IMG/VR virus record: IMGVR_UViG_3300005841_000939
DNA: 64,000 nt
Direction: 5' to 3' (one strand)
Source: a virus
Taxonomy: Duplodnaviria > Caudoviricetes
Positions 32,619-44,503 of the stretch are shown piece after piece. Below the pieces are notes generated by a model. The model did not search any database and was not told the DNA's origin. It worked only from the letters and a program-made list of their open reading frames with translations. How positions within the stretch are numbered: position 1 is the stretch's first letter; the number at the start of each line of letters is the position of its first letter. Both the position numbers and the translations under genes were made by a program.

Positions 32619-32626
32619 AAGAAAAA

Positions 32627-33048: not shown

Positions 33049-33052
33049 AAAT

Positions 33053-33127
33053 TGGTTCCCCGTCTGAGAATTGAACTCAGGTCTCCAGCGTCACAAGCCG
33101 ATATACTGCCATTGTACGAACGAGGGA
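33053..33127 (-). tRNA. tRNA-His(GTG), atypical acceptor stem
   Basis: TCGGC-TTGTGAC-GCTGG arm; A73, no G-1. Confidence 0.75.
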
Positions 33128-33207
33128 ATAACAAAACCGATTTTTTCCATAGCTCGGTAAACACTATGTTCCTTAGACGAGAACACGTTCATAGAAATTT
33201 CAAATAT

Positions 33208-33282
33208 TGGTTCCCCATCCGAGAATCGAACTCGGGTCTCCGGTGCCACAAACCAGCGTACTAACCACTGTACGAATGAGAG
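33208..33282 (-). tRNA. tRNA-His(GTG) second copy, atypical acceptor stem
   Basis: CTGGT-TTGTGGC-ACCGG arm; A73, no G-1. Confidence 0.75.
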
Positions 33283-33283
33283 A

Positions 33284-33595
33284 ATGAGAAAGACATTTTA
33301 TAATATTGCAATGCTTCGTTTAAAAACATTACGTGATGGACATACTTGTGTATTTTGTGGCCTAACATCTAAGCTAGGTAACAAGTCATGCCGAAATCTC
33401 ATAGAGATTCATCATATTATTGAACGTCAAGATGGCGGATCTAACGAAAGTTCAAATTTAATTCCATGCTGTTCCAATCACCATTCGCTTATCCATTCAG
33501 GAAGCATCAACGTTGATCGTTGGTACAAATCCACAAAAGGATGGCTATTGCGATGGACAGATGAAACTGGTGTTGAACACTATTCACCAGAATAA
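33284..33595 (+). CDS. HNH endonuclease, antisense to the array
   Basis: CVFCG...IEIHHII...GGSN..SNLIPCCSNHHSLIH. Confidence 0.82.
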   Translation: MRKTFYNIAMLRLKTLRDGHTCVFCGLTSKLGNKSCRNLIEIHHIIERQDGGSNESSNLIPCCSNHHSLIHSGSINVDRWYKSTKGWLLRWTDETGVEHYSPE

Positions 33596-33599
33596 AAAA

Positions 33600-33945
33600 T
33601 TGTTTGAATGGTGTGTTATTACACCAAAGAACCGGTTTTCTTTACTCTTAATCAAACACGAATTATAAAAAGACACATTGAAAAAGTAATGTATTGTCTC
33701 TTTATAAAAGGAGAATAACTCCAAAGTTTCGTTCTTAAACATGTAGCTGACTCCGGTCAAAGAGTAGGATTATGAATCCTTGCGCGGTTTGTTCAGAAGA
33801 GGTTGCTAGCTAATCCCTTCGTCGTCATACTTTATTTACCTTTTTTATCAGGACCATATGACAATCATCGGGCAAGCACCTTGCTATTCAGCGAATTCAC
33901 TCTTTAAAAGATGGCTACTTCTAAGCCGACTTCCCATTCAAACAA
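33600..33945 (-). ncRNA. 23S rRNA GTPase-associated-centre (H42-H44) mimic RNA with a large insert
   Basis: 12-bp terminal inverted repeat; GGAAGTCGGCTTAGAAGTAGCCATCTTTTAAAGAG at the 5' end and TTCTTTGGTGTAATAACACAC at the 3' end. Confidence 0.72.
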
Positions 33946-33951
33946 AAAGAA

Positions 33952-34108
33952 TTTCACGACAAAAGTGCCAAAGTAGACTCCTTGCGGATTAGCTGTGTCT
34001 ATCATTTCCACCATACTCCCAATTGGTGGGAGCACCGGGATTTAAACCACGGATGTACCTAAGTACGGCTACGGTTATATAATGTAAACTTTAACTGCAT
34101 TCGTGAAA
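33952..34108 (-). ncRNA. Y RNA-like (YrlA-type) with permuted class II tRNA module
   Basis: TTTCACGA/TCGTGAAA stem, GAATGC, TACAT; variable arm, T arm, closed acceptor TGCTCCC-ACCAATT-GGGAGTA, D arm. Confidence 0.75.
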
Positions 34109-34110
34109 AG

Positions 34111-34185
34111 TGGTGCGTCGTCTTGGAATCGAACCAAGTCCCGAGGATTAAAAGTCCCCTGCTCCACCATTTGAGCTTACAACGC
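34111..34185 (-). tRNA. tRNA-Lys(TTT)
   Basis: GGGGA-CTTTTAA-TCCTC arm, encoded CCA. Confidence 0.9.
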
Positions 34186-34189
34186 GTGT

Positions 34190-34501
34190 TTATTTCTTTG
34201 GTAAATTGCCAGTTATGAAAAATTTAAGACGTTGAAAAAAGCCCATATGAACTATTTCTTCATATGACATCAACATACTTTCCATACATGAATCTTTTAA
34301 CTTATTACTTTCTTCAATCTTTTTATTTTCTTCAATCAGTCTTTTATTTTCGGATTGAAGTGAAACATAATGCTTTTGTTGATATTCGATCAAACCAGCA
34401 TGAAATGCAGTTCCGCCAACCAAAATAAATTCACGAAGTGGAATTGATTGAGGCATTGAGTCTTGCATCTGTTGCGCAGCTTTTTCTAAATCTTTAGTCA
34501 T
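34190..34501 (-). CDS. hypothetical protein
   Basis: 103-aa ORF inside the array. Confidence 0.5.
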   Translation of the reverse strand: MTKDLEKAAQQMQDSMPQSIPLREFILVGGTAFHAGLIEYQQKHYVSLQSENKRLIEENKKIEESNKLKDSCMESMLMSYEEIVHMGFFQRLKFFITGNLPKK

Positions 34502-34669
34502 TTTATTTCTTTGTGATTGGTTTTAACGGACTTTGATCCATACCCTGGACCAAACTTTTCTATCTGCTTCTTATACCACAATGCATGTGATCTAAGCCTT
34601 AAGAAATCGCCAGGTCCACTTCCTTTTGGTATCGGAATTTTTCTGAACATGGCATCTCCTTTCTTAATT

Positions 34670-34744
34670 TGGTGGGTCGTCACGGAATCGAACCGTGTTC
34701 TCAGGATTAAGAGTCCTATGCATCGCCATTTATGCTTACAACCC
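34670..34744 (-). tRNA. tRNA-Lys(CTT)
   Basis: TAGGA-CTCTTAA-TCCTG arm, encoded CCA. Confidence 0.9.
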
Positions 34745-34748
34745 AAAT

Positions 34749-35036
34749 TTATATTAAAGATAGTGTTGATTCATCAAATAGGAATTCTTTTTTGACTTGT
34801 TCAATTGGAACTTTTATGACTTGTTCGTGAAATTGCCTAGTTTCTTTATAAGACGATTTTGAATGCTTATATACATGACGAATTAGCACCGTCTTTTCAG
34901 TGACCTTCGCAATTTTACCAAACATGAATGATCTATATTCCAATTCTACAAATAAAACCCAATCACCTGCAGCTAATTCATTGCCAAGAAAATCTTTGTT
35001 CATGGCGAAAGTATATGCAACCAATTTCGTTGTCAA
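34749..35036 (-). CDS. hypothetical protein
   Basis: 95-aa ORF; start uncertain. Confidence 0.5.
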   Translation of the reverse strand: MTTKLVAYTFAMNKDFLGNELAAGDWVLFVELEYRSFMFGKIAKVTEKTVLIRHVYKHSKSSYKETRQFHEQVIKVPIEQVKKEFLFDESTLSLI

Positions 35037-35420
35037 TTCTAAAAGGATACCTGGTTAAGCAGCAGGGTGAGGTTACGATTCTGTCGTCACAGACCGATTA
35101 AATATTCTTCACTCATCACAAACGCCAAACAGTCATCATCCATTCCATTATCAATTATGACTGGACCTGTTGCTTCTGCACCATACATTTTGATGGCATT
35201 TTCCATGGAATCTTCACACAGTTTTTTGAATTCTGGATATTCCATGATGATCACTTTATAATTCTAAGAGGATAAAATTTTGTTTCATCCTTCTTTTTAT
35301 TCTTTGGATTCTTACTACGTTTTTGTTCAGATTCATGCAAAAGTTTTGCATAAATTTTCTGAAACTCTTCTAACGTGATTCCTATATCGTCATCTTCTTT
35401 CATGATGAGTCTTTCTAAAA

Positions 35421-35496
35421 TGGTGGAGACGGCAGGACTCGAACCTGTAACCCTCTACGTGCAAGGCAGATGCTCTACCAATTGAGCTACGTCCCC
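35421..35496 (-). tRNA. tRNA-Ala(TGC)
   Basis: GGGGACG acceptor with G3-U70, CTTGCAC loop, encoded CCA. Confidence 0.92.
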
Positions 35497-35595
35497 ATTT
35501 TGTTTATTGATATTTAGCTTTCGCTATTTTCTTCTTCCATGATGGCCAGGAATTAAACTTTTTCTTAGCCTCTTTTAAAATTTGTGCAGATGATT

Positions 35596-36039
35596 TCATA
35601 TTTTATTGGCGAATGTATAAAACATTCCAGTCTTTGTGTCAATGAATTTATATTCCTCAACTTTATATTCAAAAACTAATGAAAATATTCCGTCTGTATC
35701 ATTTAAATCATGATCTAACTTAGTTCCATGATAGAGACCTGCCAGATAAATTTTAGTAAATTCAAGTTTCAATATTACATCACCATTTTTTGCTATTTGT
35801 GATGTAACAATTTTTTCTGGTTGTTTAAACATCAATTCAAGTGTTTTTGGATTTTTATCATCAACTAACATTTTTATTTTTAATGTATCTTTATTAGTGA
35901 AGTCAACCGTTCTCACAAGTGTTGTTAGTTCGTTCTTTGGAACTAGTTCTACGCCATTAGCATCAAAGGCTTCTACTAAAAATAGATATGATCTTAATGG
36001 ATCATTAAAAAGAAATTCTGGTTTTGGAATATTATTCAT
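35596..36039 (-). CDS. hypothetical protein
   Basis: start placed at MNNIPKPEF (36039); the longer ORF-track version runs through tRNA genes. Confidence 0.55.
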   Translation of the reverse strand: MNNIPKPEFLFNDPLRSYLFLVEAFDANGVELVPKNELTTLVRTVDFTNKDTLKIKMLVDDKNPKTLELMFKQPEKIVTSQIAKNGDVILKLEFTKIYLAGLYHGTKLDHDLNDTDGIFSLVFEYKVEEYKFIDTKTGMFYTFANKI

Positions 36040-36080
36040 ACAAGTAATTATACAAAATATATTACAATATGCGAGAAAAA

Positions 36081-36156
36081 TGGTTGGGGAGGAAGGATTC
36101 GAACCTTCAACTTCTGGATTCAAAGTCCAGCGTTCTACCGATTGAACTACTCCCCA
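36081..36156 (-). tRNA. tRNA-Gln(TTG)
   Basis: CTGGA-CTTTGAA-TCCAG arm, U1-A72, encoded CCA. Confidence 0.92.
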
Positions 36157-36165
36157 ATGAAAATT

Positions 36166-36247
36166 TGGTGTGCCTGAGAGGACTTGAACCTCCACCCTTT
36201 CGGACTAGTTTCTAAAACTAGCGCGGCTGCCATTACGCCACAAGCAC
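36166..36247 (-). tRNA. tRNA-Leu(TAG)
   Basis: CTAGT-TTTAGAA-ACTAG arm, long variable arm, encoded CCA. Confidence 0.92.
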
Positions 36248-36262
36248 ATGATGAAATTGAAA

Positions 36263-36349
36263 TGGTGTGTCCAAAAGGAGTCGAACCTTCACCCCTGTTA
36301 CGGGATTAGCACCTCAAGCTAACGCGGCTGCCAATTACGCCATAGACAC
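36263..36349 (-). tRNA. tRNA-Leu(GAG)
   Basis: TTAGC-TTGAGGT-GCTAA arm, long variable arm, encoded CCA. Confidence 0.92.
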
Positions 36350-36356
36350 ATAAAAA

Positions 36357-36417
36357 TCAAGACTAATATTTGAGAAGTTTTGTTGTTTCATAATGTAAAC
36401 TTCTGCGGCATTCTTGA
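36357..36417 (-). ncRNA. Y RNA-like family, short copy
   Basis: TCAAGA/TCTTGA stem, GAATGC, GAAGTTT/AAACTTC stem, TACAT. Confidence 0.6.
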
Positions 36418-36427
36418 AAAAATAAAA

Positions 36428-36522
36428 TGGCGCCCCAGGATGGATTTGAACCACCAACCTCTTCTTGATCCCCCAAGGGATGGCCTTGATCAAGAATCAC
36501 TCTACATTTGAGCTACCGGGGC
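36428..36522 (-). ncRNA. tRNA-like RNA with an extended, non-canonical anticodon arm
   Basis: normal acceptor, D and T arms and CCA; 9-bp TTCTTGATC/GATCAAGAA stem enclosing 17 nt. Confidence 0.65.
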
Positions 36523-36532
36523 ATATAAAAAA

Positions 36533-36607
36533 TGGCACCCAAGATAGGACTCGAACCTATAACATCCTGATTAACAGTCAGGCTCTCTACCATTGAGATA
36601 CTCGGGT
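36533..36607 (-). tRNA. tRNA-Asn(GTT)
   Basis: CCTGA-CTGTTAA-TCAGG arm, G73, encoded CCA. Confidence 0.9.
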
Positions 36608-36617
36608 ACAAAAAAAA

Positions 36618-36708
36618 TGGCTGGTAGTGAGGGACTCGAACCCCCATGATGTTTTTCACATCGGCTCGTTAACAGCGGGCTGCCTTACCAAATTCGGCAC
36701 AACTACCA
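36618..36708 (-). tRNA. tRNA with Asn anticodon (GTT) and a class II long variable arm
   Basis: loop CTGTTAA; variable hairpin GATGT-GAAAA-ACATC; G73; encoded CCA. Confidence 0.75.
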
Positions 36709-36720
36709 ATGAAAATAAAA

Positions 36721-36806
36721 TGGAGTCTGTAGCAGGATTTGAACCTGCGTGTGGTTTCCCAAACGGTTTTGCAAACCGTCGCTTTCAGCCGCTCAGCCAT
36801 ACAGAC
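36721..36806 (-). tRNA. tRNA-Cys(GCA) with a long variable arm
   Basis: ACGGT-TTGCAAA-ACCGT arm, U73, variable hairpin TGG-GAAA-CCA. Confidence 0.85.
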
Positions 36807-36812
36807 ATATAA

Positions 36813-36891
36813 TCGCAACAAAATTTAAAAAGTTTTGGTTTTTCCAGAGCAAGCTCGGGTATATTAGATGTAAACTTTTCAGCATTTGCGA
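36813..36891 (-). ncRNA. Y RNA-like family, short copy
   Basis: TCGCAA/TTGCGA stem, AAATGC, AAAAGTTT/AAACTTTT stem, TACAT, one internal hairpin. Confidence 0.6.
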
Positions 36892-36902
36892 AATAAAAAG
36901 AA

Positions 36903-37037
36903 TAAAGCGACAAAAAGTATGAAGTGGTTTTTCGTGTGTTAGCCGTTACACCACCACCCGTTATGGTCGGGCAGCCAGGAATCGAACCTAGATCACGTTC
37001 TCCGAATGAATGTACACCTCAAAAGGCATTCGCTTTA
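36903..37037 (-). ncRNA. Y RNA-like (YrlA-type) with permuted tRNA module
   Basis: TAAAGCGA/TCGCTTTA stem, GAATGC, TACAT; T arm CTAGGTTCGATTCCTGG, closed acceptor CTGCCCG-ACCATAA-CGGGTGG, D arm. Confidence 0.8.
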
Positions 37038-37039
37038 AA

Positions 37040-37116
37040 TGGTGGTCCCTCAGGGAATCGAACCCTAACCTCAGGTTTTTCAAACCTACGTGCATACCTA
37101 ATTACACCAAAGGACC
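37040..37116 (-). tRNA. tRNA-Phe(GAA)
   Basis: TAGGT-TTGAAAA-ACCTG arm, encoded CCA. Confidence 0.9.
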
Positions 37117-37133
37117 ATAATATCTTAAAAAAT

Positions 37134-37223
37134 TGGCGGATAGAGAGGGATTTGAACCCCCGGAACGTTTTCACGCTCATCGGTTTAGTAAACCGGCGCA
37201 TTCGGCCACTCTGCCATCTATCC
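37134..37223 (-). tRNA. tRNA-Ser(ACT), rare A34 anticodon
   Basis: Ser-type body nearly identical to 40811-40900; loop TTACTAA. Confidence 0.8.
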
Positions 37224-37232
37224 GTATGAAAC

Positions 37233-37306
37233 TGGTCGGTAATGATGGAGTCGAACCATCGCATTGGCCTTATGAGAGCCACGTTCTGCCGTTAAACTAA
37301 ATACCG
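37233..37306 (-). tRNA. tRNA-Met or Ile2 (CAT)
   Basis: TGGCT-CTCATAA-GGCCA arm, encoded CCA. Confidence 0.8.
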
Positions 37307-37310
37307 ATAC

Positions 37311-37386
37311 TGGCACGCTGGGCAGGACTTGAACCTGCAACACCTGGTTTTGGAAACCAGTGCTCTGCCGATTGAGCTACCAGCGT
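37311..37386 (-). tRNA. tRNA-Trp(CCA)
   Basis: CTGGT-TTCCAAA-ACCAG arm, G73, encoded CCA. Confidence 0.92.
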
Positions 37387-37393
37387 ATGAAAC

Positions 37394-37603
37394 TTAAAAA
37401 TCTTTCTCTTCAAGCAAATTTGTGCAACGACCTTCTGCAACTGCTCTATTTATGTCATCAAATTCTTTTTTGATTTCATCAAGCAATGCTTTCTTTTCTT
37501 CTTCTGATATATCAGAAGAATTTAACCTTTCTTCGGTTTTCTCATCCAAATGAATGCAACTTGAAATCATTCCTTCTGATAACCATTCCTGTGGAACTAT
37601 CAT
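37394..37603 (-). CDS. small hypothetical protein
   Basis: 69-aa ORF, ATGA coupling. Confidence 0.5.
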   Translation of the reverse strand: MIVPQEWLSEGMISSCIHLDEKTEERLNSSDISEEEKKALLDEIKKEFDDINRAVAEGRCTNLLEEKDF

Positions 37604-38205
37604 TTGTCTTCTTTCTCTAAAAGGTTGTTAAAAATGATTTTGCAAATGGCCTTGCCACGACGGTCAATATGCTTCCACTTGATCTTAAAAGAATCCGAAT
37701 CAATACCACCAAACATATTGGCATTTGAATGGATTTCAGCAAGACCTGCAATTAGAAGTGTTATTGCTTCTTTGCGTTTGCAAAATTCTTCAATTTGTTC
37801 TGCTTTGAGACGATGAATATCCATATCCAACCTAATGAGATTGGCAATTTGTTCATCACCTCCATGATCTAACCAAATTTGTGCAGAAATTTCCGCATGA
37901 TTTGGAAAATGAATGCGACCTTCGCTATCAGTTTCCTGACAGAATGGTTTGCCGCAATCATGAAAAAGGGCATACTCAAGAATTGTTTCGGTGTCTAACA
38001 GATTCCCTAAAATCTGTGACTTGTATAATTGAAACCATTCAGGGAGTCGCCAATTTGGCAACACCTATGTTTCACCTTTTATAAACTGAATCAACTCTTG
38101 AAGATGATTCTTGACTGATTCTCCGTGTTGGAGAATCGTTTGATGTTGATTTTGATTACAACCCTTCATCTTTTCGATGAGGATCTACTGAAAGTCCTGC
38201 TTCAT
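37600..38205 (-). CDS. HD-like phosphohydrolase interrupted by two in-frame TAG codons (readthrough gene or pseudogene)
   Basis: AAGGA RBS + ATG at 38205; TAG at 38185-38187 and 38065-38067; TILQHG...FHDCGKP...HFPNHA; ends at TGA. Confidence 0.6.
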
Positions 38206-38380
38206 GATGTTCCTTAAATGGTTGATGCGAGAGCGAGCGATGTTGCTATGCGTGAAAGTTCGTCATTTCTTTTACTATCAATTTGACCATTGTTCCATCC
38301 AATTTCTCGAATGTGAAATGCCAACGCCAAAGAATTTTCAAATTCTTCAACTTCAATTAATTTTTCTCCAACTCTAATCA

Positions 38381-38689
38381 TCATTTCAATCTTTCTGATT
38401 TTTGAATTGCGAGTTGTTTTGACGATTTAATTTTATTATACAAGTCATCAGGATGGAAATTTGGTTCCCATTCTTTCCCTTGTGTAATATGAAATTTTTC
38501 TGCCATCATGTGATGGGTTGGGCAAAGAGAAATACCATTCTCTTTGACATAGCCACCGTTTGGCATTTCATTTCGATCAGTTATGTGATGCGCATCAAGA
38601 TTTTCTTTAATGTCACAAAACAAACATTTGCCACCGTCTCGCTTGAAGACTGCGTTGCGAAATGCTGAACGAATTTCCTTCTTGTTCAT
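38381..38689 (-). CDS. HNH endonuclease
   Basis: VFKRDGGKCLFC...LDAHHI...NGISLCPTHH. Confidence 0.82.
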   Translation of the reverse strand: MNKKEIRSAFRNAVFKRDGGKCLFCDIKENLDAHHITDRNEMPNGGYVKENGISLCPTHHMMAEKFHITQGKEWEPNFHPDDLYNKIKSSKQLAIQKSERLK

Positions 38690-38738
38690 GGCTTACGACA
38701 TAAGTTTAAGCCTTGTTTTTATATGTCAACTGAAAAAA

Positions 38739-38890
38739 CACCTGGGTATTCGCTGTCTTTCAAACTCTGGTTAGTTGATGCATTCAACATCACCAATGCG
38801 CCAAGTGTGTATTGAAAATGCCGCAGTCAGGATATGCGCCAGCTTTGAACTTCTAGTTAGTTGATGCATCAACATCACTAATGCGCCTGA
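38739..38890 (-). ncRNA. tandem pair of ~65-nt structured motifs of unknown function
   Basis: two copies of GGCGCATTRGTGATGTTGA(A)TGCATCAACTAACYAG, each in its own closing helix, with a compensatory A-U/G-C change. Confidence 0.55.
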
Positions 38891-38901
38891 GATTGGCTTT
38901 T

Positions 38902-38977
38902 TGGTGGACAATGAGGGATTTGAACCCCCGACCTCTTGAATGTAAATCAAGCACTCTAGCCGCTGAGTTAATCGTCC
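38902..38977 (-). tRNA. tRNA-Val(TAC)
   Basis: CTTGA-TTTACAT-TCAAG arm, encoded CCA. Confidence 0.92.
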
Positions 38978-38994
38978 AAAAATTGAAATTATAA

Positions 38995-39137
38995 AGGCAG
39001 CTTTCAATCGCGACCATATCGTATAATTTCTTCCTGTTTTTTATCCATGATGGATCATCATGCTATGCTTTTGACTTGTTGCAAACAAGCAATGTTATGC
39101 ATTAACATTGTTAGCATCTAACCGTCGCTAGATGCCC
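38995..39137 (-). ncRNA. candidate multi-hairpin ncRNA
   Basis: four consecutive hairpins inside GGGCA/TGCCT ends. Confidence 0.4.
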
Positions 39138-39145
39138 AAAAAAGA

Positions 39146-39212
39146 AATACGACTAAAAGCGAATAAGAGGGGTTATCTTAAATGGATGTACTCCTATTCT
39201 AGCATTCGTATT
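39146..39212 (-). ncRNA. Y RNA-like family, short copy
   Basis: AATACGA/TCGTATT stem, GAATGC, GAATAGGAG/CTCTTATTC stem, TACAT. Confidence 0.62.
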
Positions 39213-39214
39213 AT

Positions 39215-39300
39215 TGGTGCCCATAGCCGGACTTGAACCAGCACCCCTGTTACGGGAGAGGATTTTGAATCCACCGCGGCTGCCATTACGCCATACGGGC
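39215..39300 (-). tRNA. tRNA-Leu(CAA)
   Basis: loop TTCAAAA, long variable arm, encoded CCA. Confidence 0.9.
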
Positions 39301-39342
39301 AAAAATTGATTGTCTAAAATGGTTGTGAATACTTTCGTTTAT

Positions 39343-39446
39343 AGAAATGGTCTGCCGTAGCACGTTGGCCATTTCTTTGACGGGAGCATTCATATCTAAA
39401 AGGTGCCAATAATATCCCCAAAGCTGCCGTAGCACGTTCTATGAGG
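39343..39446 (-). repeat. two hairpins sharing the 15-mer AACGTGCTACGGCAG
   Basis: identical 15-mer at 39352-39366 and 39424-39438, each capping a different basal stem. Confidence 0.6.
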
Positions 39447-39458
39447 AAGATGGCGAAA

Positions 39459-39532
39459 TTGCTGCGACACTTGGATTTAAACCAAGACTTTCCGATTTCC
39501 CCTCGGTGCTCTAATTATTAAGCTATATCACA
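39459..39532 (-). pseudogene. degenerate tRNA-like gene
   Basis: acceptor, D and T arms pair; anticodon loop GGGGAAA lacks U33; ends GCAA instead of NCCA. Confidence 0.55.
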
Positions 39533-39538
39533 ATAAGA

Positions 39539-39615
39539 TGGTCAGTATGAGAGGATTTGAACCTCTGACTTCTGGCTTCCAAAACCAGCACTCTTCCAGG
39601 CTGAGCTACACACTG
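39539..39615 (-). tRNA. tRNA-Pro(TGG)
   Basis: CTGGT-TTTGGAA-GCCAG arm, C1-G72, encoded CCA. Confidence 0.88.
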
Positions 39616-39623
39616 ATAAAAAG

Positions 39624-39725
39624 TTTCACAACAAAATAAAAAAGAAGTGCTCCCCAATAGAGCATCTGAGGTTTCCCTAAGATTGGAATCGAACCAATAA
39701 TGTATTCTTTTTAGCATTTGTGAAA
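39624..39725 (-). ncRNA. Y RNA-like with reduced tRNA module
   Basis: TTTCACAA/TTGTGAAA stem, AAATGC, TACAT; T arm ATTGGTTCGATTCCAAT, GAAA-capped stem, TGCTC/GAGCA hairpin. Confidence 0.68.
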
Positions 39726-39731
39726 ATGAAA

Positions 39732-39818
39732 TGGTGGGTGAAATAGGACTCGAACCTATGAAGTCATTAAAGACGGGACGTTTACAGCGTCCAGCAATTG
39801 CCGCTATGCGATTCACCC
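39732..39818 (-). tRNA. tRNA-Tyr(GTA)
   Basis: GGACG-CTGTAAA-CGTCC arm, long variable arm, encoded CCA. Confidence 0.92.
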
Positions 39819-39823
39819 AAAAA

Positions 39824-39964
39824 TATCACGACTAAATTGCGAAAGAAAATGGCTTGCGCCGAATCGGCTGTTCTACCGCTGAACTACATCACACCGAAAT
39901 GTGATGGTGGGATTTGAACCCACGACAGGCTGATGGAATGTAATCCTTCATTGCATTCGTGATA
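39824..39964 (-). ncRNA. Y RNA-like (YrlA-type) with permuted tRNA module
   Basis: TATCACGA/TCGTGATA stem, GAATGC, TACAT; T arm GTGGGTTCAAATCCCAC, closed acceptor CATCACA-TTTCGG-TGTGATG, D arm TAGTTCAGCGGTAGAAC. Confidence 0.82.
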
Positions 39965-39975
39965 AAAACTGAAAA

Positions 39976-40052
39976 TGGTCGGACATGCTGGATTTGAACC
40001 AGCGGTCTCTTGCTCCCAAAGCAAGCGCGATACCAGGCTACGCTAATGTCCG
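39976..40052 (-). tRNA. tRNA-Pro(TGG) second copy
   Basis: CTTGC-TTTGGGA-GCAAG arm, encoded CCA. Confidence 0.92.
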
Positions 40053-40056
40053 AAAA

Positions 40057-40131
40057 GCCGATCCGTCAAGATTTTAACTTGAATCTCCCAGCGTATAGTG
40101 CCAGGCATTCTTTACGTTGAACTACGAATCG
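40057..40131 (-). ncRNA. tRNA-like RNA with a 9-nt anticodon loop (CACTATACG)
   Basis: 7-bp acceptor, D and T arms; no GG in the D loop; no encoded CCA. Confidence 0.55.
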
Positions 40132-40146
40132 AAAAGTAAACTAAAA

Positions 40147-40223
40147 AGGCCCGACTGTCAAGATTTGAACTTGAATTTTCCAGCCATGACGGCCGGACGT
40201 TCTTTGCATTGAACTACAATCAG
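40147..40223 (-). ncRNA. tRNA-like RNA with a 9-nt anticodon loop (CCGTCATGG), paralogue of 40057-40131
   Basis: same D and T arm sequences, covarying acceptor stem; ends GCCT. Confidence 0.55.
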
Positions 40224-40228
40224 AAAAA

Positions 40229-40361
40229 GAAACGACTAAAAGCGAAAAGATGTATTACGCGCTCTACCGGTGAGCTAAACGAGCAAATTGGCGCCCGCTC
40301 CAGGAATCGAACCTGGTCCTCGTCCTTAACATGGATGTAATCCTTTCAAAGCATTCGTTTC
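40229..40361 (-). ncRNA. Y RNA-like (YrlA-type) with permuted tRNA module
   Basis: GAAACGA/TCGTTTC stem, GAATGC, GAAAGGAT/ATCTTTTC, TACAT; T arm CCAGGTTCGATTCCTGG, closed acceptor AGCGGGC-GCCAATTT-GCTCGTT, D arm. Confidence 0.82.
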
Positions 40362-40370
40362 AAAGAAAAG

Positions 40371-40501
40371 GTCTGACAAATATTAGAGAAATTGTTTTTT
40401 AATGCTACCGTTACACCATACACACCTTTCGATGTGCAATAGGATTCGAACCTATACCCTTTGATTATCGGTCAATGTAAATCTCTCAAAGGCATTCAGA
40501 C
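40371..40501 (-). ncRNA. Y RNA-like (YrlA-type) with permuted tRNA module
   Basis: GTCTGA/TCAGAC stem, GAATGC, GAGAGAT/ATTTCTC, TACAT; T arm ATAGGTTCGAATCCTAT, closed acceptor TGCACAT-CGAAAG-GTGTGTA, D arm. Confidence 0.8.
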
Positions 40502-40504
40502 TTG

Positions 40505-40580
40505 TGGTTGGCATACCAGGAATCGAACCTGGATCTTAACTTTATCAGAGTTATGTGATGAACCATTCTACTATACGCCA
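40505..40580 (-). tRNA. tRNA-Ile(GAT)
   Basis: TAACT-CTGATAA-AGTTA arm, encoded CCA. Confidence 0.88.
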
Positions 40581-40583
40581 ATA

Positions 40584-40696
40584 TGGTGATGTCGATTTTT
40601 AGGCCGACACCACTAATCCAACGTTTAAACTCGGTTTTACCCAAATCTCCTAACGTTGGCAAAAGGAATGCTACTAGCCTTTCGACTAATAGCATT
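40584..40696 (-). ncRNA. candidate three-hairpin ncRNA
   Basis: ATGCTATTAGTC-GAAA-GGCTAGTAGCAT, CCAACGTT/AACGTTGG and GGTGTCG/CGACATC stems. Confidence 0.4.
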
Positions 40697-40810
40697 TTTA
40701 ATGCTATTTTTTGATTCTACAGTTATAAAGTTTTCAAGTTTGAATCTGGAACCATTATTCTGTCGTTCTTGGGTTTAGCAAGAACTATCCTTTTTGGTTT
40801 GTCGATTCAT

Positions 40811-40900
40811 TGGCGGATAGAGAGGGATTTGAACCCCCGGAGCCCTTTCAGGCCCTCTAGTTTTCAAGACTAGCGCAATAAGCCGCTCTGCCATCTATCC
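40811..40900 (-). tRNA. tRNA-Ser(TGA)
   Basis: CTAGT-CTTGAAA-ACTAG arm, long variable arm, G73, encoded CCA. Confidence 0.93.
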
Positions 40901-40930
40901 AGCACATTCTAAATTTTTCAAAGATACTAC

Positions 40931-41108
40931 AAAACGAAAAACCCTGAGACTTTTTGGTCCCAGGGTCTTGAGTCAGTCAGTTATGACCTTCTCAGTTGGG
41001 ACCACTTCCGTTTCTATCCAACGGATTTGAGCGGCAAGGATATGTATTAAATGCTACTTGAGCATTCCAGACCTTGCTTTTCATAATGAGTTGATGGGAG
41101 CGTTTCAT
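40931..41108 (-). promoter_or_regulatory. leader-peptide transcription attenuator heading the tRNA/ncRNA array
   Basis: 38-aa leader ORF 41108-40992; terminator 40931-40966 (10-bp stem + U tract); antiterminator GGTCCCA/TGGGACC. Confidence 0.68.
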
Positions 41109-41164
41109 GGCGTTATGTTGATATTTATATATAACTTATTCTAGCATGCAAGAGAAATTTTTTC

Positions 41165-41608
41165 TCAGAAATCTAGAAGCTTGTAAACCTTGTCTTTTGC
41201 GTGTGTTAAGTCGTTGATGATTACATCAAACTTGGGATGCTTGTTTCTACGCTCACGTTCTAAGAAGTCAACGTACCACTCAAGTTGTCCTATGATTTTA
41301 TTTGCGTAGGATCTAACATTGTGTGGATTCACATTTTGACCTTGAACTTGAATATACTTATTCATTTTCTCTACGAGGTCCAAAATAGCCTTGTAATCTT
41401 TTATTCTAAAATATGAAATAGGATCACCATTTTCATCACGTTCAAATGGTGCTATTTTTTTATCAAACTGATGAATACGGTCATCAAAACCACTTAACAG
41501 TTGCCATACACGAAAAAATCTTTCTGATAGAGGTAAGCTTCTTTGTGCTTCTACATGAGCGTTTTCTAAAAACTTACTCCATTGTCTTTTCATGAATGCA
41601 GGGTGCAT
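41165..41608 (-). CDS. hypothetical protein
   Basis: 147-aa ORF, loosely similar to the upstream neighbour (W..FLE). Confidence 0.6.
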   Translation of the reverse strand: MHPAFMKRQWSKFLENAHVEAQRSLPLSERFFRVWQLLSGFDDRIHQFDKKIAPFERDENGDPISYFRIKDYKAILDLVEKMNKYIQVQGQNVNPHNVRSYANKIIGQLEWYVDFLERERRNKHPKFDVIINDLTHAKDKVYKLLDF

Positions 41609-41616
41609 ATTAGTCC

Positions 41617-42063
41617 TTAGAAATTTAATTCTTTGAATGCCGCTGGCAAGGCTTTTATCAAATTATTGGCTGCTTCATCAACTTTCTTATCATGACCACG
41701 TAAAGAAATTAATTTCTTAGCATAATTTGACATTGAATTGATAATGCCGTCACGGTAAACTTTTACTTTTTCAATATTTGGATTTTCATTTTTATACAAA
41801 TATTTACGAAGGGCATCCCAAGTACTTACAATATCTTTTAACTTATTTGTATCATAAAAAGATTTTTGTTCGCCGGTTTGAGAATCCATATTTTTATCCC
41901 AACCACCTGCACGTTCAGCTTTATACAAATCATCAATAAATGCTGATACTTCGCGATAACCCTTCATTATTTTATCTTCTACAGAATTACCAAGGGTAAT
42001 CATCTGTGGACGTTCAAGAAATAATTTCCATTTATTTTTAAATTGTTGTTTTTCTGTAGCCAT
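41617..42063 (-). CDS. hypothetical protein
   Basis: 148-aa ORF. Confidence 0.6.
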   Translation of the reverse strand: MATEKQQFKNKWKLFLERPQMITLGNSVEDKIMKGYREVSAFIDDLYKAERAGGWDKNMDSQTGEQKSFYDTNKLKDIVSTWDALRKYLYKNENPNIEKVKVYRDGIINSMSNYAKKLISLRGHDKKVDEAANNLIKALPAAFKELNF

Positions 42064-42209
42064 GATTATTTCTTTGGATTGTGTTTAAAATATTCAACTT
42101 GTTGAATTCTTTTTTCTGCTTGCTTGTGAGAAAGATTACTTTTAGAGAGATTTTTCTTTCCATCCTTGCTTACAACTTTGTATCCACTTTTTGTTTTTCT
42201 GATCATAAT

Positions 42210-43496
42210 TTACCCCAAAATAACGTTGAATTTATCACCTTCACCAGTGATCTTTTTTCCCTTATTCATCTTTTGATATGCATTCCAACCTTCGTTGATT
42301 TTCTTCAATTTAGATTTTTTGCGATCATCAGTTGTAACTTGTTCATAAAAATCAATCTTTGGTCCACAATCCATGCGACCAACGCCAGCATGTACAGGGG
42401 ATTGTTCTTTGATTTGTTCATCATCTTCAACAGGTTCTTCATCGTCTTGTTCAATATCGGCTGGTTTATCAGCAGCAACTTTAACATTATTATGTTTAGG
42501 TTTGAAATCGTGATGAATCACTTTCTTTGTTTCTTGATCAAAACCAAGAGCAGGATCATCTGGATCTAACAACCAAGTATCGCCACTTGCAATTTTCTTG
42601 AGCAATTCATTTTGTGCTTTAGTATCAAGACCCTTGATAATTTCTTGACGCTTCTTAAATCCACTTGCAAATGCACCATAGATATTAGCAATACGAACAT
42701 CATTGAAAATCTTTGCTGACAAATCAACCAATTGATTCCAATAATTGTAATCTTTGTTATTCTTCATCCAACTTGCAAAACTTGAAACACGCTCTGGAAT
42801 TTGTGATTTATTTGGATCAGCATCAACAACGTTTTTACGTTCACGACCATTGTCTTGTATACGTCCAAATAAATTTGGGGCTTCTGTGAGAGTACCTTTA
42901 TTTGCAACACCAAGTTTACCTGCAACTTCTGGTAATAGGTATGGAAGTAAAGCACCACGACCTTCTTTTGAATTAATTACAAAGTTTCTGAAACCATCAG
43001 TGTTATCAATATTTGGATAACCCAAATAATCAATACCTAGCCCAATGCCACGCTTTCTTACTGCTTCTGCAACCAATTTATTAAATTCGTCAACATGATT
43101 ATTTGCACTTGCTACAGCTTCAACTGACATTTCTGCCATTTCATCACGGTAAGAATTAAGTAATTCTAAAATTATATTAGTATCGCCTGATACAGATACA
43201 TTTGACAAATCTTTTGTAGCTTCTCTTGCAAAATCATGATAGACCTTATACATGGTCTTATCTTTCTTTGCTTTCTCAGCTTTCAAAATCTTTTGATATT
43301 CTGGATTCTTTGAAAGATCAGCAATATTCTTACCAAATGTTCTCAAGAAATCATCTTGAGAATCAAATTTACCGCCAGCAATTGGTGCGTCAGGATGAAC
43401 ATCTGATCCACCAAAAGCTTCATCCTCTTTAAGCAATTTACGCTTTTGGAAGACTTTCCAGTCACCTTTACCAGTATTGATGTATTCTTGATCCAT
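42210..43496 (-). CDS. hypothetical protein, possibly virion-internal
   Basis: 428-aa ORF, GGAG RBS, TATAAATA at 43521-43528. Confidence 0.65.
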   Translation of the reverse strand: MDQEYINTGKGDWKVFQKRKLLKEDEAFGGSDVHPDAPIAGGKFDSQDDFLRTFGKNIADLSKNPEYQKILKAEKAKKDKTMYKVYHDFAREATKDLSNVSVSGDTNIILELLNSYRDEMAEMSVEAVASANNHVDEFNKLVAEAVRKRGIGLGIDYLGYPNIDNTDGFRNFVINSKEGRGALLPYLLPEVAGKLGVANKGTLTEAPNLFGRIQDNGRERKNVVDADPNKSQIPERVSSFASWMKNNKDYNYWNQLVDLSAKIFNDVRIANIYGAFASGFKKRQEIIKGLDTKAQNELLKKIASGDTWLLDPDDPALGFDQETKKVIHHDFKPKHNNVKVAADKPADIEQDDEEPVEDDEQIKEQSPVHAGVGRMDCGPKIDFYEQVTTDDRKKSKLKKINEGWNAYQKMNKGKKITGEGDKFNVILG

Positions 43497-43541
43497 TAGG
43501 TTCTCCTAGTATCTTTTACGTATTTATATGTTTTAAAAGCC

Positions 43542-43578
43542 AAAAAATAAACCTATGGAAATTTCTTCCATAGGTTTA
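43542..43578 (-). terminator. rho-independent terminator
   Basis: TAAACCTATGGAA/TTCCATAGGTTTA 13-bp stem followed by a U run. Confidence 0.8.
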
Positions 43579-43603
43579 CTAGATTCTAATTACTTTTTTA
43601 CTA

Positions 43604-44503
43604 TTATTCTTCGTCGGACTTATGTCCAGTTACTTTATGCTTTTCTTTTGAATCTGAACTAATCTTTGATGAAGACAACTTACCTTTGAGTTTTTCTATC
43701 TTTTTCTTCAATTCTTCTTTTTCTTCTGGATCAGTTTCATCGGCAAGCCACTTCTTAAGGCCTTCCAATTCTTTCTTCAAAGCTTCAAGATTTTGTTCGT
43801 TGAACTTTTGAACGCGGCCAGCTTGGAATGACTTCCATGACTTGCGACCTTCCATCATTGGGTCACGTTGCTTTTCACGATCTGCGGCATCTTGTTCTGC
43901 CTTATCGTCTGAATTGCAAACTTCTTCTTCCTTCAATTCAGTATCATCAACTGGTGCTGCATCGTCAGATGGAGCAACATCACCTACTGGTGCATCCAAT
44001 GCTGGATCAGCAACTGGTGCTGCATCAGGAACCATTGCACCTGAAGCGCCTGGGATTGCTGAATCAACTGGTTGAAGAATATTTGCAACATCTTGAATTG
44101 TCATTGTTGCTGGGAAAGTGACAACCATGAATTGGCCACTTTGATCATCATTAACTGATGCATTAAAGATACCATTTTCATTGACTGATTCTGCAATATT
44201 AACATCTGATGGGAGACCCTTCAAATATTTTGTAACGAAATCAGTTGTTGCCAACTTTGCTTGTGGATCAGCGGCAGCACCTTCTGCTGATGCATCTGGT
44301 GTAGTTGCAGGAACTTCTGGTGAAGTAACATCAACTGGTGCTGGTGCATCAGTTGCGGATGGATCTACTACTGGATCTTCCTCTTCTTCTTTTACTTTAA
44401 CGAGTCCCCAACTCTCTTTAAGAATTTGCTTATATGTTGAACGAAGGTCTTTACTGAGCTTGTTGCGCTTTTCGATAAGTTCGTCTCTTTTATTCATATC
44501 CAT
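43604..44503 (-). CDS. acidic Pro/Ala/Asp-rich hypothetical protein
   Basis: 299-aa ORF, TATAAATA at 44538-44545. Confidence 0.65.
   Translation of the reverse strand: MDMNKRDELIEKRNKLSKDLRSTYKQILKESWGLVKVKEEEEDPVVDPSATDAPAPVDVTSPEVPATTPDASAEGAAADPQAKLATTDFVTKYLKGLPSDVNIAESVNENGIFNASVNDDQSGQFMVVTFPATMTIQDVANILQPVDSAIPGASGAMVPDAAPVADPALDAPVGDVAPSDDAAPVDDTELKEEEVCNSDDKAEQDAADREKQRDPMMEGRKSWKSFQAGRVQKFNEQNLEALKKELEGLKKWLADETDPEEKEELKKKIEKLKGKLSSSKISSDSKEKHKVTGHKSDEE

What the first reader, a model, noticed from the sequence alone, without database searches (positions are those of the whole stretch)
40931..41108. Leader-peptide attenuator that could switch on the whole tRNA/Y RNA array when translation stalls
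Seen: directly upstream of the first tRNA, a 38-codon ORF MKRSHQLIMKSKVWNAQVAFNTYPCRSNPLDRNGSGPN (41108-40992) uses 19 of 20 amino acids (no Glu). It is followed by a terminator (ACCCTGGGAC/GTCTCAGGGT + TTTTCGTTTT). The last codons contain GGTCCCA, complementary to TGGGACC in the terminator 5' arm. Established: this is the geometry of ribosome-mediated attenuation (trp/his type). Inference: a ribosome reaching the stop masks the antiterminator and transcription ends; stalling anywhere upstream allows read-through. With no single enriched codon, it would sense general tRNA depletion, for example by host anticodon nucleases.
Basis: partly seen in the sequence, partly recalled or inferred. Interest (0 to 1): 0.75.

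Follow-up and report, generated by a model that had tools for sequence, protein, structure and literature searches.

The report
Candidate attenuator before phage tRNA array
Just ahead of this 262-kb soil phage's tRNA genes sit a promoter, a 38-codon mini-gene that uses nearly every kind of codon the phage's own tRNAs read, and a switchable transcription stop, so the phage may make its tRNAs only when ribosomes slow down; so far this rests on sequence statistics alone.

Summary
The complementary segment is 8 nt rather than 7.

The terminator (40969-40938) is strong. It lies 30 nt before the first tRNA and about 180 nt after promoter boxes (TTGCAT-N16-TATAAA, which overlaps a TATAAATA late box).

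Several features are weak:
- The ORF's length is unremarkable (16% of shuffles).
- Its codon usage is non-genic.
- It has no Shine-Dalgarno sequence and is not leaderless.

Two features are not chance-like:
- The 38 codons sample 22 of the 24 anticodons and all 18 amino acids of the main tRNA array (P about 1e-4 to 4e-3).
- The 8-nt antiterminator strand (P about 0.01) lies in the last four codons. It forms in nascent-RNA folds unless a ribosome sits at the stop codon.

The nearest Ro60-phage lineage (L004) has a non-homologous cassette with the same layout (P about 2e-4). Caulobacter phage RB23 gp135 also matches its tRNA block (P about 1e-3).

No close relatives or RNA data exist for this locus.

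Verdict: a leader-peptide attenuator is the best reading, at about 50%. Control of the "whole array" and the anticodon-nuclease idea are untested.

This scan has reported the same idea before on other phage DNA, and I found no published account of it.

The parts
41122..41151 (-). Promoter-like boxes: TTGCAT (41151-41146), a 16-nt spacer, then TATAAA. This overlaps an exact TATAAATA box (41129-41122). A one-mismatch copy of the phage's GCATGATA box lies at 41149-41142.
   Evidence: TATAAATA occurs 27 times on this genome strand against about 13 expected, mostly 0-43 nt before ORF starts. TTGCAx/TTGACx-N15/16-TAnnn(T/A) sites are listed, and the GCATGATA family.
40992..41108 (-). Leader ORF: 38 sense codons plus a TGA stop (40994-40992). 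It samples 22 of 24 anticodons and all 18 amino acids of the main tRNA array. The only residues the array cannot supply are two Gly among the last five codons.
   Evidence: sequence; sampling statistics; non-genic codon usage; length not significant.
41034..41077 (-). Hairpin 1 inside the ORF (codons 11-25). It is a possible pause or anti-antiterminator element and is not statistically exceptional.
   Evidence: Folds. The leader body without the terminator has z = -1.16, against a local background of -0.59 +/- 1.04.
41007..41025 (-). Hairpin 2 (6-bp stem) just before the antiterminator strand.
40997..41004 (-). Antiterminator 5' strand UGGUCCCA, lying in codons 35-38 and ending 2 nt before the stop codon.
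40967..40995 (-). Internal hairpin enclosed by the antiterminator helix.
   Evidence: The antiterminator module 41004-40955 folds alone at -21.4 kcal/mol.
40955..40962 (-). Antiterminator 3' strand UGGGACCA. This is the apical half of the terminator's 5' arm plus two loop bases.
40931..40969 (-). Intrinsic terminator T1: 13-pair stem, 6-nt loop, U tract UUUUUCGUUUU.
   Evidence: -19.1 kcal/mol. Terminator plus internal hairpin gives z = -4.5.
40906..40932 (-). Weak promoter-like site TTGTAG-N15-TAGAAT. Its predicted start would fall on the first base of tRNA-Ser. This is the rival source of array transcription.
   Evidence: It was not called by the consensus scan. The -35 matches 3 of 6, and I estimate the pattern arises by chance in about 8% of such spacers (my inference).
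40811..40900 (-). tRNA-Ser(UGA), the first gene of the tRNA/Y RNA array that runs to 32261.
40661..40708 (-). Second terminator-like element T2: a 13-bp GAAA-loop hairpin followed by UCCUUUUG, with a weak competing hairpin (40708-40688). It lies between tRNA-Ser and tRNA-Ile.
   Evidence: -14.5 kcal/mol for the hairpin, -6.5 for the competitor.

Best explanation
This is a ribosome-mediated (leader-peptide type) transcription attenuator at the head of the main tRNA/Y RNA array.

Proposed mechanism:
1. Transcription starts about 41116, behind the TTGCAT-N16-TATAAA / TATAAATA boxes.
2. The RNA carries a 38-codon ORF built as a one-of-each sample of the codons that the phage's own tRNAs read.
3. 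While RNA polymerase copies the terminator's 5' arm, the last four codons (UGGUCCCA) can pair with UGGGACCA. This occupies the apical half and loop of the terminator, so the hairpin cannot nucleate and polymerase runs on into tRNA-Ser and beyond.
4. A ribosome that has translated smoothly to the UGA stop covers UGGUCCCA. Terminator T1 then forms and the transcript ends at about 40933.
5. A ribosome held up at any of roughly the first 30 codons, or no ribosome at all, leaves the antiterminator free.
6. Output of phage tRNAs would therefore rise when decoding is slow and fall when it is fast.

Shown from sequence: the promoter boxes, the ORF, its unusual codon repertoire, the two mutually exclusive folds and their energies.

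Inferred: that the ORF is translated, that translation is coupled to transcription here, that T1 terminates efficiently, and how far downstream the read-through reaches.
For: 1. T1 is a strong terminator (-19.1 kcal/mol, U-rich proximal tail) placed 30 nt before the first tRNA and about 150-185 nt after promoter boxes. A constitutive terminator there would make little sense for a dedicated promoter.
2. The ORF samples 22 of 24 array anticodons and 18 of 18 array amino acids. P is 1e-4 against stop-free frames of the genome, real gene segments or phage codon usage, 6e-4 against random sequence of local composition, and 4e-3 against shuffles of the ORF itself. It is the only one of 120 intergenic ORFs of 38 codons or more to reach this. 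The first 30 'sensing' codons alone give P 6.5e-4 to 6e-3.
3. The array lacks Glu and Gly tRNAs, which lie in the cluster at 12171-11863. The leader has no Glu, and its two Gly codons lie in the structural last five codons.
4. Codon usage is unlike phage genes: a score of -8.5 against 21.4 +/- 10.3, at the 0.4th percentile. That is expected for a sensor ORF and not for a protein gene.
5. The antiterminator is 8 nt (P about 0.01). It is the minimum-energy fold of the nascent RNA, both without a ribosome and with one stalled at codon 20, and it is abolished by a footprint at the stop codon. The full-length terminator and antiterminator folds differ by only 5 kcal/mol.
6. L004/L003, the nearest relatives (Ro60 49% identical), carry a cassette with no sequence similarity to this one. 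It has TTGACA-N16-TAGGAT, a leaderless 23-codon ORF holding all 13 amino acids of the first tRNA block (P 2e-4; 0.012 after correction for about 60 ORFs tested), a GGUGCC/GGCACC antiterminator in its last codons, an enclosed hairpin, then a hairpin stop. All other p-values in that survey were 0.04 or higher, so the statistic is not inflated.
7. In an unrelated cultured phage, Caulobacter phage RB23, the annotated 39-aa gp135 before a 12-tRNA block samples 12 of 12 anticodons, with 33 of 39 residues drawn from the block's 8 amino acids (P about 1e-3).
Against: - ORF length is within chance (16%).
- There is no SD (the anti-SD duplex energy is positive). The ATG lies 13 nt after the TATAAATA box, whereas this phage's leaderless genes have 0-8 nt and its genes with longer leaders show an SD. 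About 42% of the phage's genes also lack a clear SD, so this weighs only moderately.
- No close relative exists, so neither ORF conservation nor covariation could be tested.
- The leader body upstream of the terminator is no more structured than background, and no clear anti-antiterminator was found.
- Each tRNA is sampled by one to three codons only, which should make a weak sensor compared with his or leu leaders.
- By strict wobble rules, 7 of 38 codons are not read by array tRNAs, and the fraction read is not significant (P 0.13-0.34).
- T2 and promoter-like sites inside the array, and a weak TTGTAG-N15-TAGAAT site after T1, could make the array independent of T1.
- Six other Ro60-phage lineages show no such cassette.
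- The second tRNA cluster has a TATAAATA box but no leader ORF or terminator.
Confidence: 0.5

Rival explanations
1. T1 is a constitutive terminator or insulator. It ends transcripts of the upstream late operon (428-, 46-, 148- and 147-aa genes, 43496-41165) and of the local promoter. The array is fed by leak-through or by promoters after T1 and inside the array. The ORF and the 8-nt complement are fortuitous.
For: There is no other terminator between the 147-aa gene's stop (41165) and T1. ORF length is within chance. There is no SD. Of the genome's terminators, 16% have an upstream complement of 7 nt or more. TTGTAG-N15-TAGAAT ends 5 nt before tRNA-Ser. Other promoter-like and terminator-like sites lie within the array. 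At genome position 233360 a tRNA follows a promoter directly, without a leader.
Against: This reading has to write off as coincidence the codon repertoire (P 1e-4 to 4e-3), the 8-nt pairing (about 1%), its position in the last codons, and the parallel cassette in L004. The site after T1 has a 3-of-6 -35 box and was not called by the consensus scan.
Confidence: 0.25
2. The element is a stand-alone late transcription unit, with promoter, about 185-nt RNA and terminator. Its product is a small regulatory RNA or a 38-aa protein unrelated to control of the array.
For: It has a complete promoter-to-terminator unit. The whole RNA folds with z about -3.9 to -4.0. L004 has tandem short promoter-hairpin units at the same place.
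Against: The structure signal comes almost entirely from the terminator and the neighbouring hairpin; the body has z = -1.16. No Rfam family matches at E up to 1. Codon usage is non-genic, and the composition is more diverse than 99.99% of real gene segments. There is no family hit for the peptide. A strong terminator placed 30 nt before the first tRNA, with no recognised promoter between them, is left unexplained.
Confidence: 0.1
3. The terminator/antiterminator pair is a real switch, but something other than the ribosome sets it: a phage or host RNA-binding protein, a small ligand, an RNA, or a change in polymerase speed during infection.
For: There are two nearly isoenergetic exclusive folds. 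Evidence for translation initiation is poor. Both terminators in the genome with complements of 8 nt or more flank tRNA-Ser.
Against: This does not explain the codon repertoire of the ORF. There is no T-box or riboswitch match. The antiterminator strand sits exactly where a terminating ribosome would cover it.
Confidence: 0.1

Closest known systems
Leader-peptide attenuators of enterobacterial amino-acid operons (trpL, hisL, leuL, pheL; multivalent thrL and ilvGMEDA leaders) - textbook knowledge
   Same: A promoter-proximal short ORF, an intrinsic terminator before the regulated genes, an alternative helix that uses the terminator's 5' arm, and a ribosome at the stop codon that covers the antiterminator strand. 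Like thr/ilv, it reports on several amino acids.
   Different: The regulated genes are tRNAs and Y RNA-like RNAs of a phage, not biosynthetic enzymes. There is no run of regulatory codons; instead nearly every anticodon is sampled once to three times. No clear 1:2 anti-antiterminator is present, so the untranslated state should read through. There is no SD. There is no sequence homology. Nothing has been tested experimentally.
pheST (phenylalanyl-tRNA synthetase) attenuator of E. coli - established knowledge, recalled and not checked here
   Same: Leader-peptide attenuation applied to a gene of the translation apparatus, which closes a feedback loop on decoding capacity.
   Different: It senses one amino acid through Phe codons and controls a protein-coding operon of the host.
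T-box riboswitches (Rfam RF00230)
   Same: A terminator/antiterminator leader that reports on tRNA status.
   Different: T-boxes bind uncharged tRNA directly without a ribosome, and control synthetase and amino-acid genes. The covariance model finds no match here at E up to 1.
Transcriptional control of the two subclusters of the phage T4 tRNA operon (Goldfarb and Daniel 1980, Nature 286:418; seen only as reference 29 of PMC9693318)
   Same: A phage tRNA gene cluster whose transcription is controlled within the operon.
   Different: I could not read the paper. I know of no leader peptide in T4, and no homology was tested.
Cassettes before tRNA blocks in L004/L003 (IMG/VR Ro60 phages) and gp135 of Caulobacter phage RB23 (MZ574433.1), plus earlier notes of this scan on other phages
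   Same: A promoter, a mini-ORF enriched in or complete for the amino acids of the following tRNA block, and a hairpin stop with an in-ORF competing strand.
   Different: There is no sequence similarity. L004's ORF is leaderless and matches one 13-amino-acid block, and RB23's is made mostly of 8 amino acids. The window's ORF is a pan-repertoire sample. All of these are in silico only.

Membership tests
Leader-peptide (ribosome-mediated) transcription attenuator | Short ORF inside the 5' leader, downstream of a promoter | tested here: met
   The ORF at 41108-40992 is the only ORF of 25 aa or more on this strand in the spacer. TATAAATA lies 13 nt upstream and TTGCAT-N16-TATAAA is also present.
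Leader-peptide (ribosome-mediated) transcription attenuator | Intrinsic terminator between the leader ORF and the regulated genes | tested here: met
   T1 at 40969-40931: 13 pairs, -19.1 kcal/mol, U tract, 30 nt before tRNA-Ser.
Leader-peptide (ribosome-mediated) transcription attenuator | Mutually exclusive antiterminator whose 5' strand is masked by a ribosome at the end of the ORF | tested here: met
   8-bp helix 41004-40997 / 40962-40955, P about 0.01. It is the minimum-energy fold of the nascent RNA and is lost when 41009-40980 is masked.
Leader-peptide (ribosome-mediated) transcription attenuator | Leader codons related to what the regulated genes supply | tested here: met
   22 of 24 anticodons and 18 of 18 amino acids of the array are sampled, P 1e-4 to 4e-3. 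There is no run of any one codon. The fraction of codons read by array tRNAs is not significant.
Leader-peptide (ribosome-mediated) transcription attenuator | Recognisable translation start signals for the leader ORF | tested here: not met
   There is no SD (duplex energy +1.6) and the predicted 5' UTR is about 8 nt, so the ORF is not leaderless. However, 42% of the phage's genes also lack an SD.
Leader-peptide (ribosome-mediated) transcription attenuator | Anti-antiterminator (1:2) that gives termination when the leader is not translated | tested here: not met
   Only a 4-bp CCGC/GUGG extension appears in the equilibrium fold. The nascent fold without a ribosome forms the antiterminator.
Leader-peptide (ribosome-mediated) transcription attenuator | Conservation of ORF and alternative helices in relatives | tested here: inconclusive
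   No relative of the leader or of the flanking proteins was found. The only other copies are identical. An analogous but non-homologous cassette exists in L004.
Leader-peptide (ribosome-mediated) transcription attenuator | Read-through responds to ribosome stalling | not testable with these tools
   This needs reporter, Term-seq or in vitro assays. No RNA run is listed.
T-box riboswitch (RF00230) | Match to the covariance model (stem I, specifier, T-box antiterminator) | tested here: not met
   cmscan of 30000-44000 at E up to 1 gives no T-box hit.
YrlA / Y RNA-like (RF02553) | Match to the model, or to the phage's own Y-like 5' motif (GAATGC-N8-11-TTACAT) | tested here: not met
   There is no hit in 40931-41160 at E up to 1. 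The motif regex does not match there, and only an 11-mer is shared with the copy at 39201.
T4-type late promoter | TATAAATA box positioned before gene starts | tested here: met
   27 copies on the main strand against about 13 expected, mostly 0-43 nt before ORF starts, with one at 41129-41122.
T4-type late promoter | gp55-like late sigma factor encoded by the phage | tested here: inconclusive
   T4 gp55, phrog_234 and phrog_12791 find nothing in the 262-kb record. The tool itself warns that a blank is not evidence of absence.

The most novel reading that the evidence does not exclude
A single 'pan-tRNA' sensor. One leader ORF spells out nearly the whole decoding repertoire of the phage's own tRNA set. 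Through a ribosome-masked antiterminator, it turns on transcription of the tRNA/Y RNA array whenever any of these codons is decoded slowly, for example after host tRNA cleavage or depletion. This would be a feedback logic not described for tRNA genes, and it would be one instance of a wider, unpublished class of codon-matched attenuators in front of phage tRNA blocks.
Probability: 0.4. Interest if true: 0.8.

Novelty: new variant of a known kind. Interest (0 to 1): 0.6.

Why it matters
How large phages control their tRNA genes is poorly understood. These genes are usually assumed to be made constitutively, either to match codon usage or to replace tRNAs destroyed by host defences.

A translation-sensing attenuator in front of a tRNA array would mean that the phage measures decoding speed and supplies tRNAs on demand. 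It would extend a classic bacterial mechanism to a new class of genes.

It would also give a simple, clonable test object of about 250 nt for studying phage responses to tRNA-targeting defences.

The same statistic picks out non-homologous cassettes in another Ro60 phage and in a cultured Caulobacter phage, which suggests the phenomenon can be surveyed and tested in culturable systems.

Tried and rejected
- **Close relatives.** The flanking 147-aa and 428-aa proteins have no relatives in viral or metagenome contigs or among 5.8 billion proteins. Exact-word searches with the terminator and with tRNA-Ser found nothing. L002 is an identical copy. The phage database matches only the tRNA.
- **Expression.** No RNA holder is listed. 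Contigs of four DNA runs do not cover 40910-41600 usefully, so there are no variants over the leader.
- **Structured sRNA.** Rejected, because the structure signal comes from the terminator and its neighbouring hairpin only.
- **Small protein gene.** Rejected on codon usage and on the absence of any family hit.
- **Y RNA-like, T-box or other Rfam family.** No match.
- **Recurrent TAGCATT motif.** Not specific.
- **GAATGC...TTACAT motif as a promoter.** Rejected; it is the 5' strand of the Y-like RNAs.
- **Analogous leader before the second tRNA cluster (12171-11863).** Only a TATAAATA box is there, with no ORF or terminator.
- **Cassettes before other blocks of this array, and in L005, L006, L008, L009, L017, L021 and L022.** None found.
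- **gp55 homologue.** Not found, which is inconclusive.
- **UGA-suppressor idea for the leader's stop codon.** The candidate tRNA (40148-40223) has an atypical anticodon loop, and TGA is a common stop in this phage (78 of 253). I did not pursue it.
- **Literature.** No paper was found on leader-peptide control of phage tRNA genes.

Full report
**Setting.** The window is the minus strand of a 262,529-bp IMG/VR virus record with about 35% G+C, estimated 97% complete. It encodes a Ro60 homologue and a CCA-adding enzyme. It carries 30 or more tRNAs on the window's - strand and several YrlA-like RNAs. The main array runs from tRNA-Ser(UGA) at 40900 down to 32261. A small second cluster (Met, Glu, Gly) lies at 12171-11863. 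The finding concerns the 264-nt spacer between the stop of a 147-aa gene (41165) and tRNA-Ser.

**Check of the observation.** Every element is present at the stated coordinates.
- The ORF runs from ATG 41108 through 38 sense codons to a TGA at 40994-40992.
- The terminator is a 13-pair hairpin at 40969-40938 with a U-rich tail to 40931. The consensus scan found it, as did my own scan of the whole genome.
- The complementary segment is 8 nt long, one more than reported: 41004-40997 against 40955-40962.

**What chance would give.**
- ORF length: an ATG ORF of 38 codons or more on this strand appears in 16% of dinucleotide shuffles of the spacer. Length is no argument.
- Complement: a perfect complement to the 5' arm within 139 nt upstream occurs in 4.7% of shuffles at 7 nt or more and in about 1% at 8 nt or more. 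Among 32 terminator-like hairpins in the genome, five have 7 nt or more and two have 8 nt or more.
- Structure: the leader body without the terminator is no more structured than neighbouring coding sequence (z = -1.16 against -0.59 +/- 1.04). The strong signal (z = -4.5) belongs to the terminator and the adjacent hairpin. The element is therefore not a compact structured RNA, and no Rfam family matches it at E up to 1.

**Promoters.**
- The octamer TATAAATA, identical to the T4 late-promoter consensus, occurs 27 times on the main coding strand against about 13 expected. Most copies lie 0-43 nt before ORF starts. Several ORFs begin 0, 2, 6 or 8 nt after it, which implies leaderless messages.
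- One copy lies at 41129-41122, 13 nt before the leader ATG. It overlaps a TTGCAT-N16-TATAAA arrangement. That resembles the phage's second promoter family, TTGACA/TTGCAx followed by aaGCATGATA, which has about 20 copies clustered at 215-243 kb.
- I found no gp55 homologue. This is inconclusive, so 'late promoter' rests on motif identity and position.
- With a start near 41116, the terminated RNA would be about 185 nt and the ORF would have an 8-nt leader without a Shine-Dalgarno sequence. That is a weakness. Genes of this phage with comparable or longer leaders show an SD, although about 42% of its genes have none by a duplex-energy measure.
- The second tRNA cluster also has a TATAAATA box about 60 nt upstream, without an ORF or terminator. 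TATAAATA-driven tRNA transcription is therefore plausible in this phage.

**Is the ORF special?**
- As a protein gene, no. Its codon-usage log-odds score is -8.5. Real gene segments of the same length score 21.4 +/- 10.3 (only 0.4% score as low), and non-coding frames score -15.1 +/- 7.8. It matches no family.
- As a sensor, yes. Earlier notes of this scan prompted me to ask how many of the array's anticodons the leader's codons address. With standard wobble rules, the 38 codons reach 22 of the 24 distinct anticodons of the main array. Only Leu-UAG and Ile-UAU are missed. Both Lys, both Arg, both Ser and two of three Leu isoacceptors are included, and all 18 amino acids the array serves are present.
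- The probability of 22 or more is 1e-4 against stop-free frames of the genome. Against real gene segments and against phage codon usage it was likewise 1e-4, and against random sequence of local composition 6e-4; these three were computed at the 23-of-24 count, before the Ile-UAU correction. It is 4e-3 against stop-free shuffles of the ORF's own bases.
- None of the other 119 intergenic ORFs of 38 codons or more reaches it.
- The main array has no Glu or Gly tRNA. The leader has no Glu, and its two Gly codons sit among the last five codons, which are the antiterminator strand.
- The fraction of codons strictly readable by array tRNAs (31 of 38) is not significant. The signal is in coverage, not exclusivity.

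**Does the geometry work?**
- The antiterminator helix with its enclosed hairpin folds at -21.4 kcal/mol and the terminator at -19.1 kcal/mol. For the full leader, the terminator fold (-54.9) beats the antiterminator-enforced fold (-49.9) by 5 kcal/mol.
- For the nascent RNA that ends in the terminator loop, the minimum-energy fold contains the antiterminator. This holds with no ribosome and with a 30-nt footprint at codon 20.
- With a footprint centred on the stop codon (41009-40980), the antiterminator cannot form, and the full-length RNA forms the terminator.
- The antiterminator occupies the apical half and loop of the terminator, which is the part needed to nucleate the hairpin.
- The model is therefore coherent, with one difference from trp: an untranslated leader should read through.

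**Relatives.**
- The flanking proteins have no homologues. The leader, terminator and tRNA-Ser have no near matches other than identical copies. Covariation and frame conservation cannot be tested.
- Ro60 identified 22 related viral loci. I ran one uniform procedure on all loci with tRNA blocks. It took every ORF of 12 or more codons within 320 nt upstream of a block and scored it for anticodon coverage, amino-acid coverage and diversity against stop-free frames of the same locus.
- Of about 60 ORFs, one stood out: a 23-codon ORF in L004 (L003 is the same sequence), the closest lineage, with Ro60 49% identical.
- That ORF starts 6 nt after a perfect TTGACA-N16-TAGGAT promoter, so it is leaderless. 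It contains all 13 amino acids of the first 20-tRNA block (P 2e-4; 0.012 after correction) and 17 different residues in 23.
- Its last codons hold GGUGCC, complementary to GGCACC in the 5' arm of the next hairpin. The nascent fold again encloses an internal hairpin. That 6-nt match alone is not significant (14%), and the hairpin's U tract is poor.
- All other p-values in the survey were 0.04 or above, so the statistic is calibrated. Six other lineages show no cassette.
- As an outside check, gp135 (39 aa) of Caulobacter phage RB23 is annotated directly before a 12-tRNA block. It samples 12 of 12 anticodons, and 33 of its 39 residues come from the block's eight amino acids (P about 1e-3).

**What argues against gating of the whole array.**
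- A second stable hairpin follows tRNA-Ser at 40694-40661 (13 bp, GAAA loop, -14.5 kcal/mol, then UCCUUUUG). It has a weak competitor hairpin. Its U tract is poor, so it may be leaky.
- Promoter-like sites occur inside the array, for example at 38729.
- A weak TTGTAG-N15-TAGAAT site between T1 and tRNA-Ser would start transcription at the tRNA's first base.
- Elsewhere in the genome a tRNA follows a promoter directly.
- The upstream late operon has no terminator of its own before T1, so T1 also serves as its end.

**Weighing.** Taken together, the codon repertoire, the 8-nt alternative helix, its placement in the last codons, the promoter and the terminator directly ahead of the first tRNA are very unlikely to be coincidence. 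A non-homologous cassette of the same design in the nearest lineage supports a functional class. Against this stand the poor start signals, the absence of any expression or comparative data for this locus, and the possibility of independent promoters. My estimates are:
- leader-peptide attenuator: about 0.5;
- constitutive terminator or insulator with a fortuitous ORF: about 0.25;
- stand-alone small RNA or small protein: about 0.1;
- a switch set by something other than the ribosome: about 0.1.

**Novelty.** The mechanism type is textbook. Its application to phage tRNA genes, and a leader that samples nearly the whole repertoire rather than repeating one codon, were not found in the literature searched. 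A 1980 paper on transcriptional control within the T4 tRNA operon exists, but I could see only its citation. This scan has already reported codon-matched leader cassettes on other phage DNA. Those notes gave me the anticodon-coverage test. They are not independent evidence, although my RB23 check agrees with them.

Noticed in passing
whole genome; window examples at 56779, 44545, 43528, 28534, 20559, 19138, 12243, 7833: Exact TATAAATA boxes lie 0-43 nt before ORF starts (27 on the main strand against about 13 expected). Several ORFs start exactly 6 nt after the box, and others at 0, 2 or 8 nt, which suggests leaderless late mRNAs. No gp55 homologue was found.
   Followed up: partly
genome 215-243 kb (outside the window); variant at window 41149-41142: About 20 copies of TTGACA/TTGCAx-N9/10-aaGCATGATA lie on both strands in intergenic DNA. 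This is probably an early promoter class with a short (15-16 nt) spacer. One copy lies 16 nt before a tRNA at genome position 233360.
   Followed up: partly
window 40708-40661 (-): A second terminator-like hairpin (13 bp, GAAA loop, then UCCUUUUG) lies between tRNA-Ser and tRNA-Ile. It has a 9-nt upstream competitor. This and T1 are the only two of 32 genome terminators with an upstream complement of 8 nt or more.
   Followed up: partly
L004 3109-3440 (same in L003): Two perfect TTGACA-N16-TAGGAT promoters lie before the tRNA array. The first feeds a unit of about 60 nt that ends in an 11-bp hairpin. The second feeds a leaderless 23-codon ORF (3235-3306) holding all 13 amino acids of the first tRNA block, followed by an antiterminator/hairpin pair.
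   Followed up: yes
L025 13735-13854 (Caulobacter phage RB23, MZ574433.1 76786-76905, gp135): An annotated 39-aa 'hypothetical protein' lies 140 nt before a 12-tRNA block. 33 of its 39 residues are from the block's eight amino acids and all 12 anticodons are sampled (P about 1e-3). A repeated CCGCTCCGGGTGCC motif follows it.
   Followed up: partly
window spacers at about 40497, 40356, 39958, 39720, 39201, 36887, 36413, 34102, 12085 (-): The recurrent motif (C/T)A(C/A)GAATGC-N8-11-TTACAT marks the 5' strands of Y RNA-like elements. There are more copies than the three sub-threshold Rfam YrlA hits.
   Followed up: no
window 40994-40977 (-) and 40148-40223, 40058-40131 (-): The leader's UGA stop is followed in frame by GAA (the one amino acid missing from the leader), three more codons and a second UGA. 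The array holds two paralogous odd tRNAs, called as anticodons UCA and UAU, both lacking the usual U33. TGA is a common stop in the phage (78 of 253), so general suppression seems unlikely.
   Followed up: partly
window 12243-12172 (-): The second tRNA cluster (Met, Glu, Gly) has a TATAAATA box overlapping the stop of a 77-aa ORF about 60 nt upstream. It has no leader ORF or terminator.
   Followed up: partly
protein of window 41165-41608 (-): The identical 147-aa protein is recorded on a contig of 379,560 bp, longer than the 262,529-bp record. The phage genome may be larger than the record, or that assembly may be chimeric.
   Followed up: no
window 40546-40696: A 2025 freshwater metagenome run (X4) holds a 151-nt contig about 91% identical to this stretch and another identical to 40715-40865. 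This hints at a related strain outside the rhizosphere, but there is no cover of the leader.
   Followed up: no
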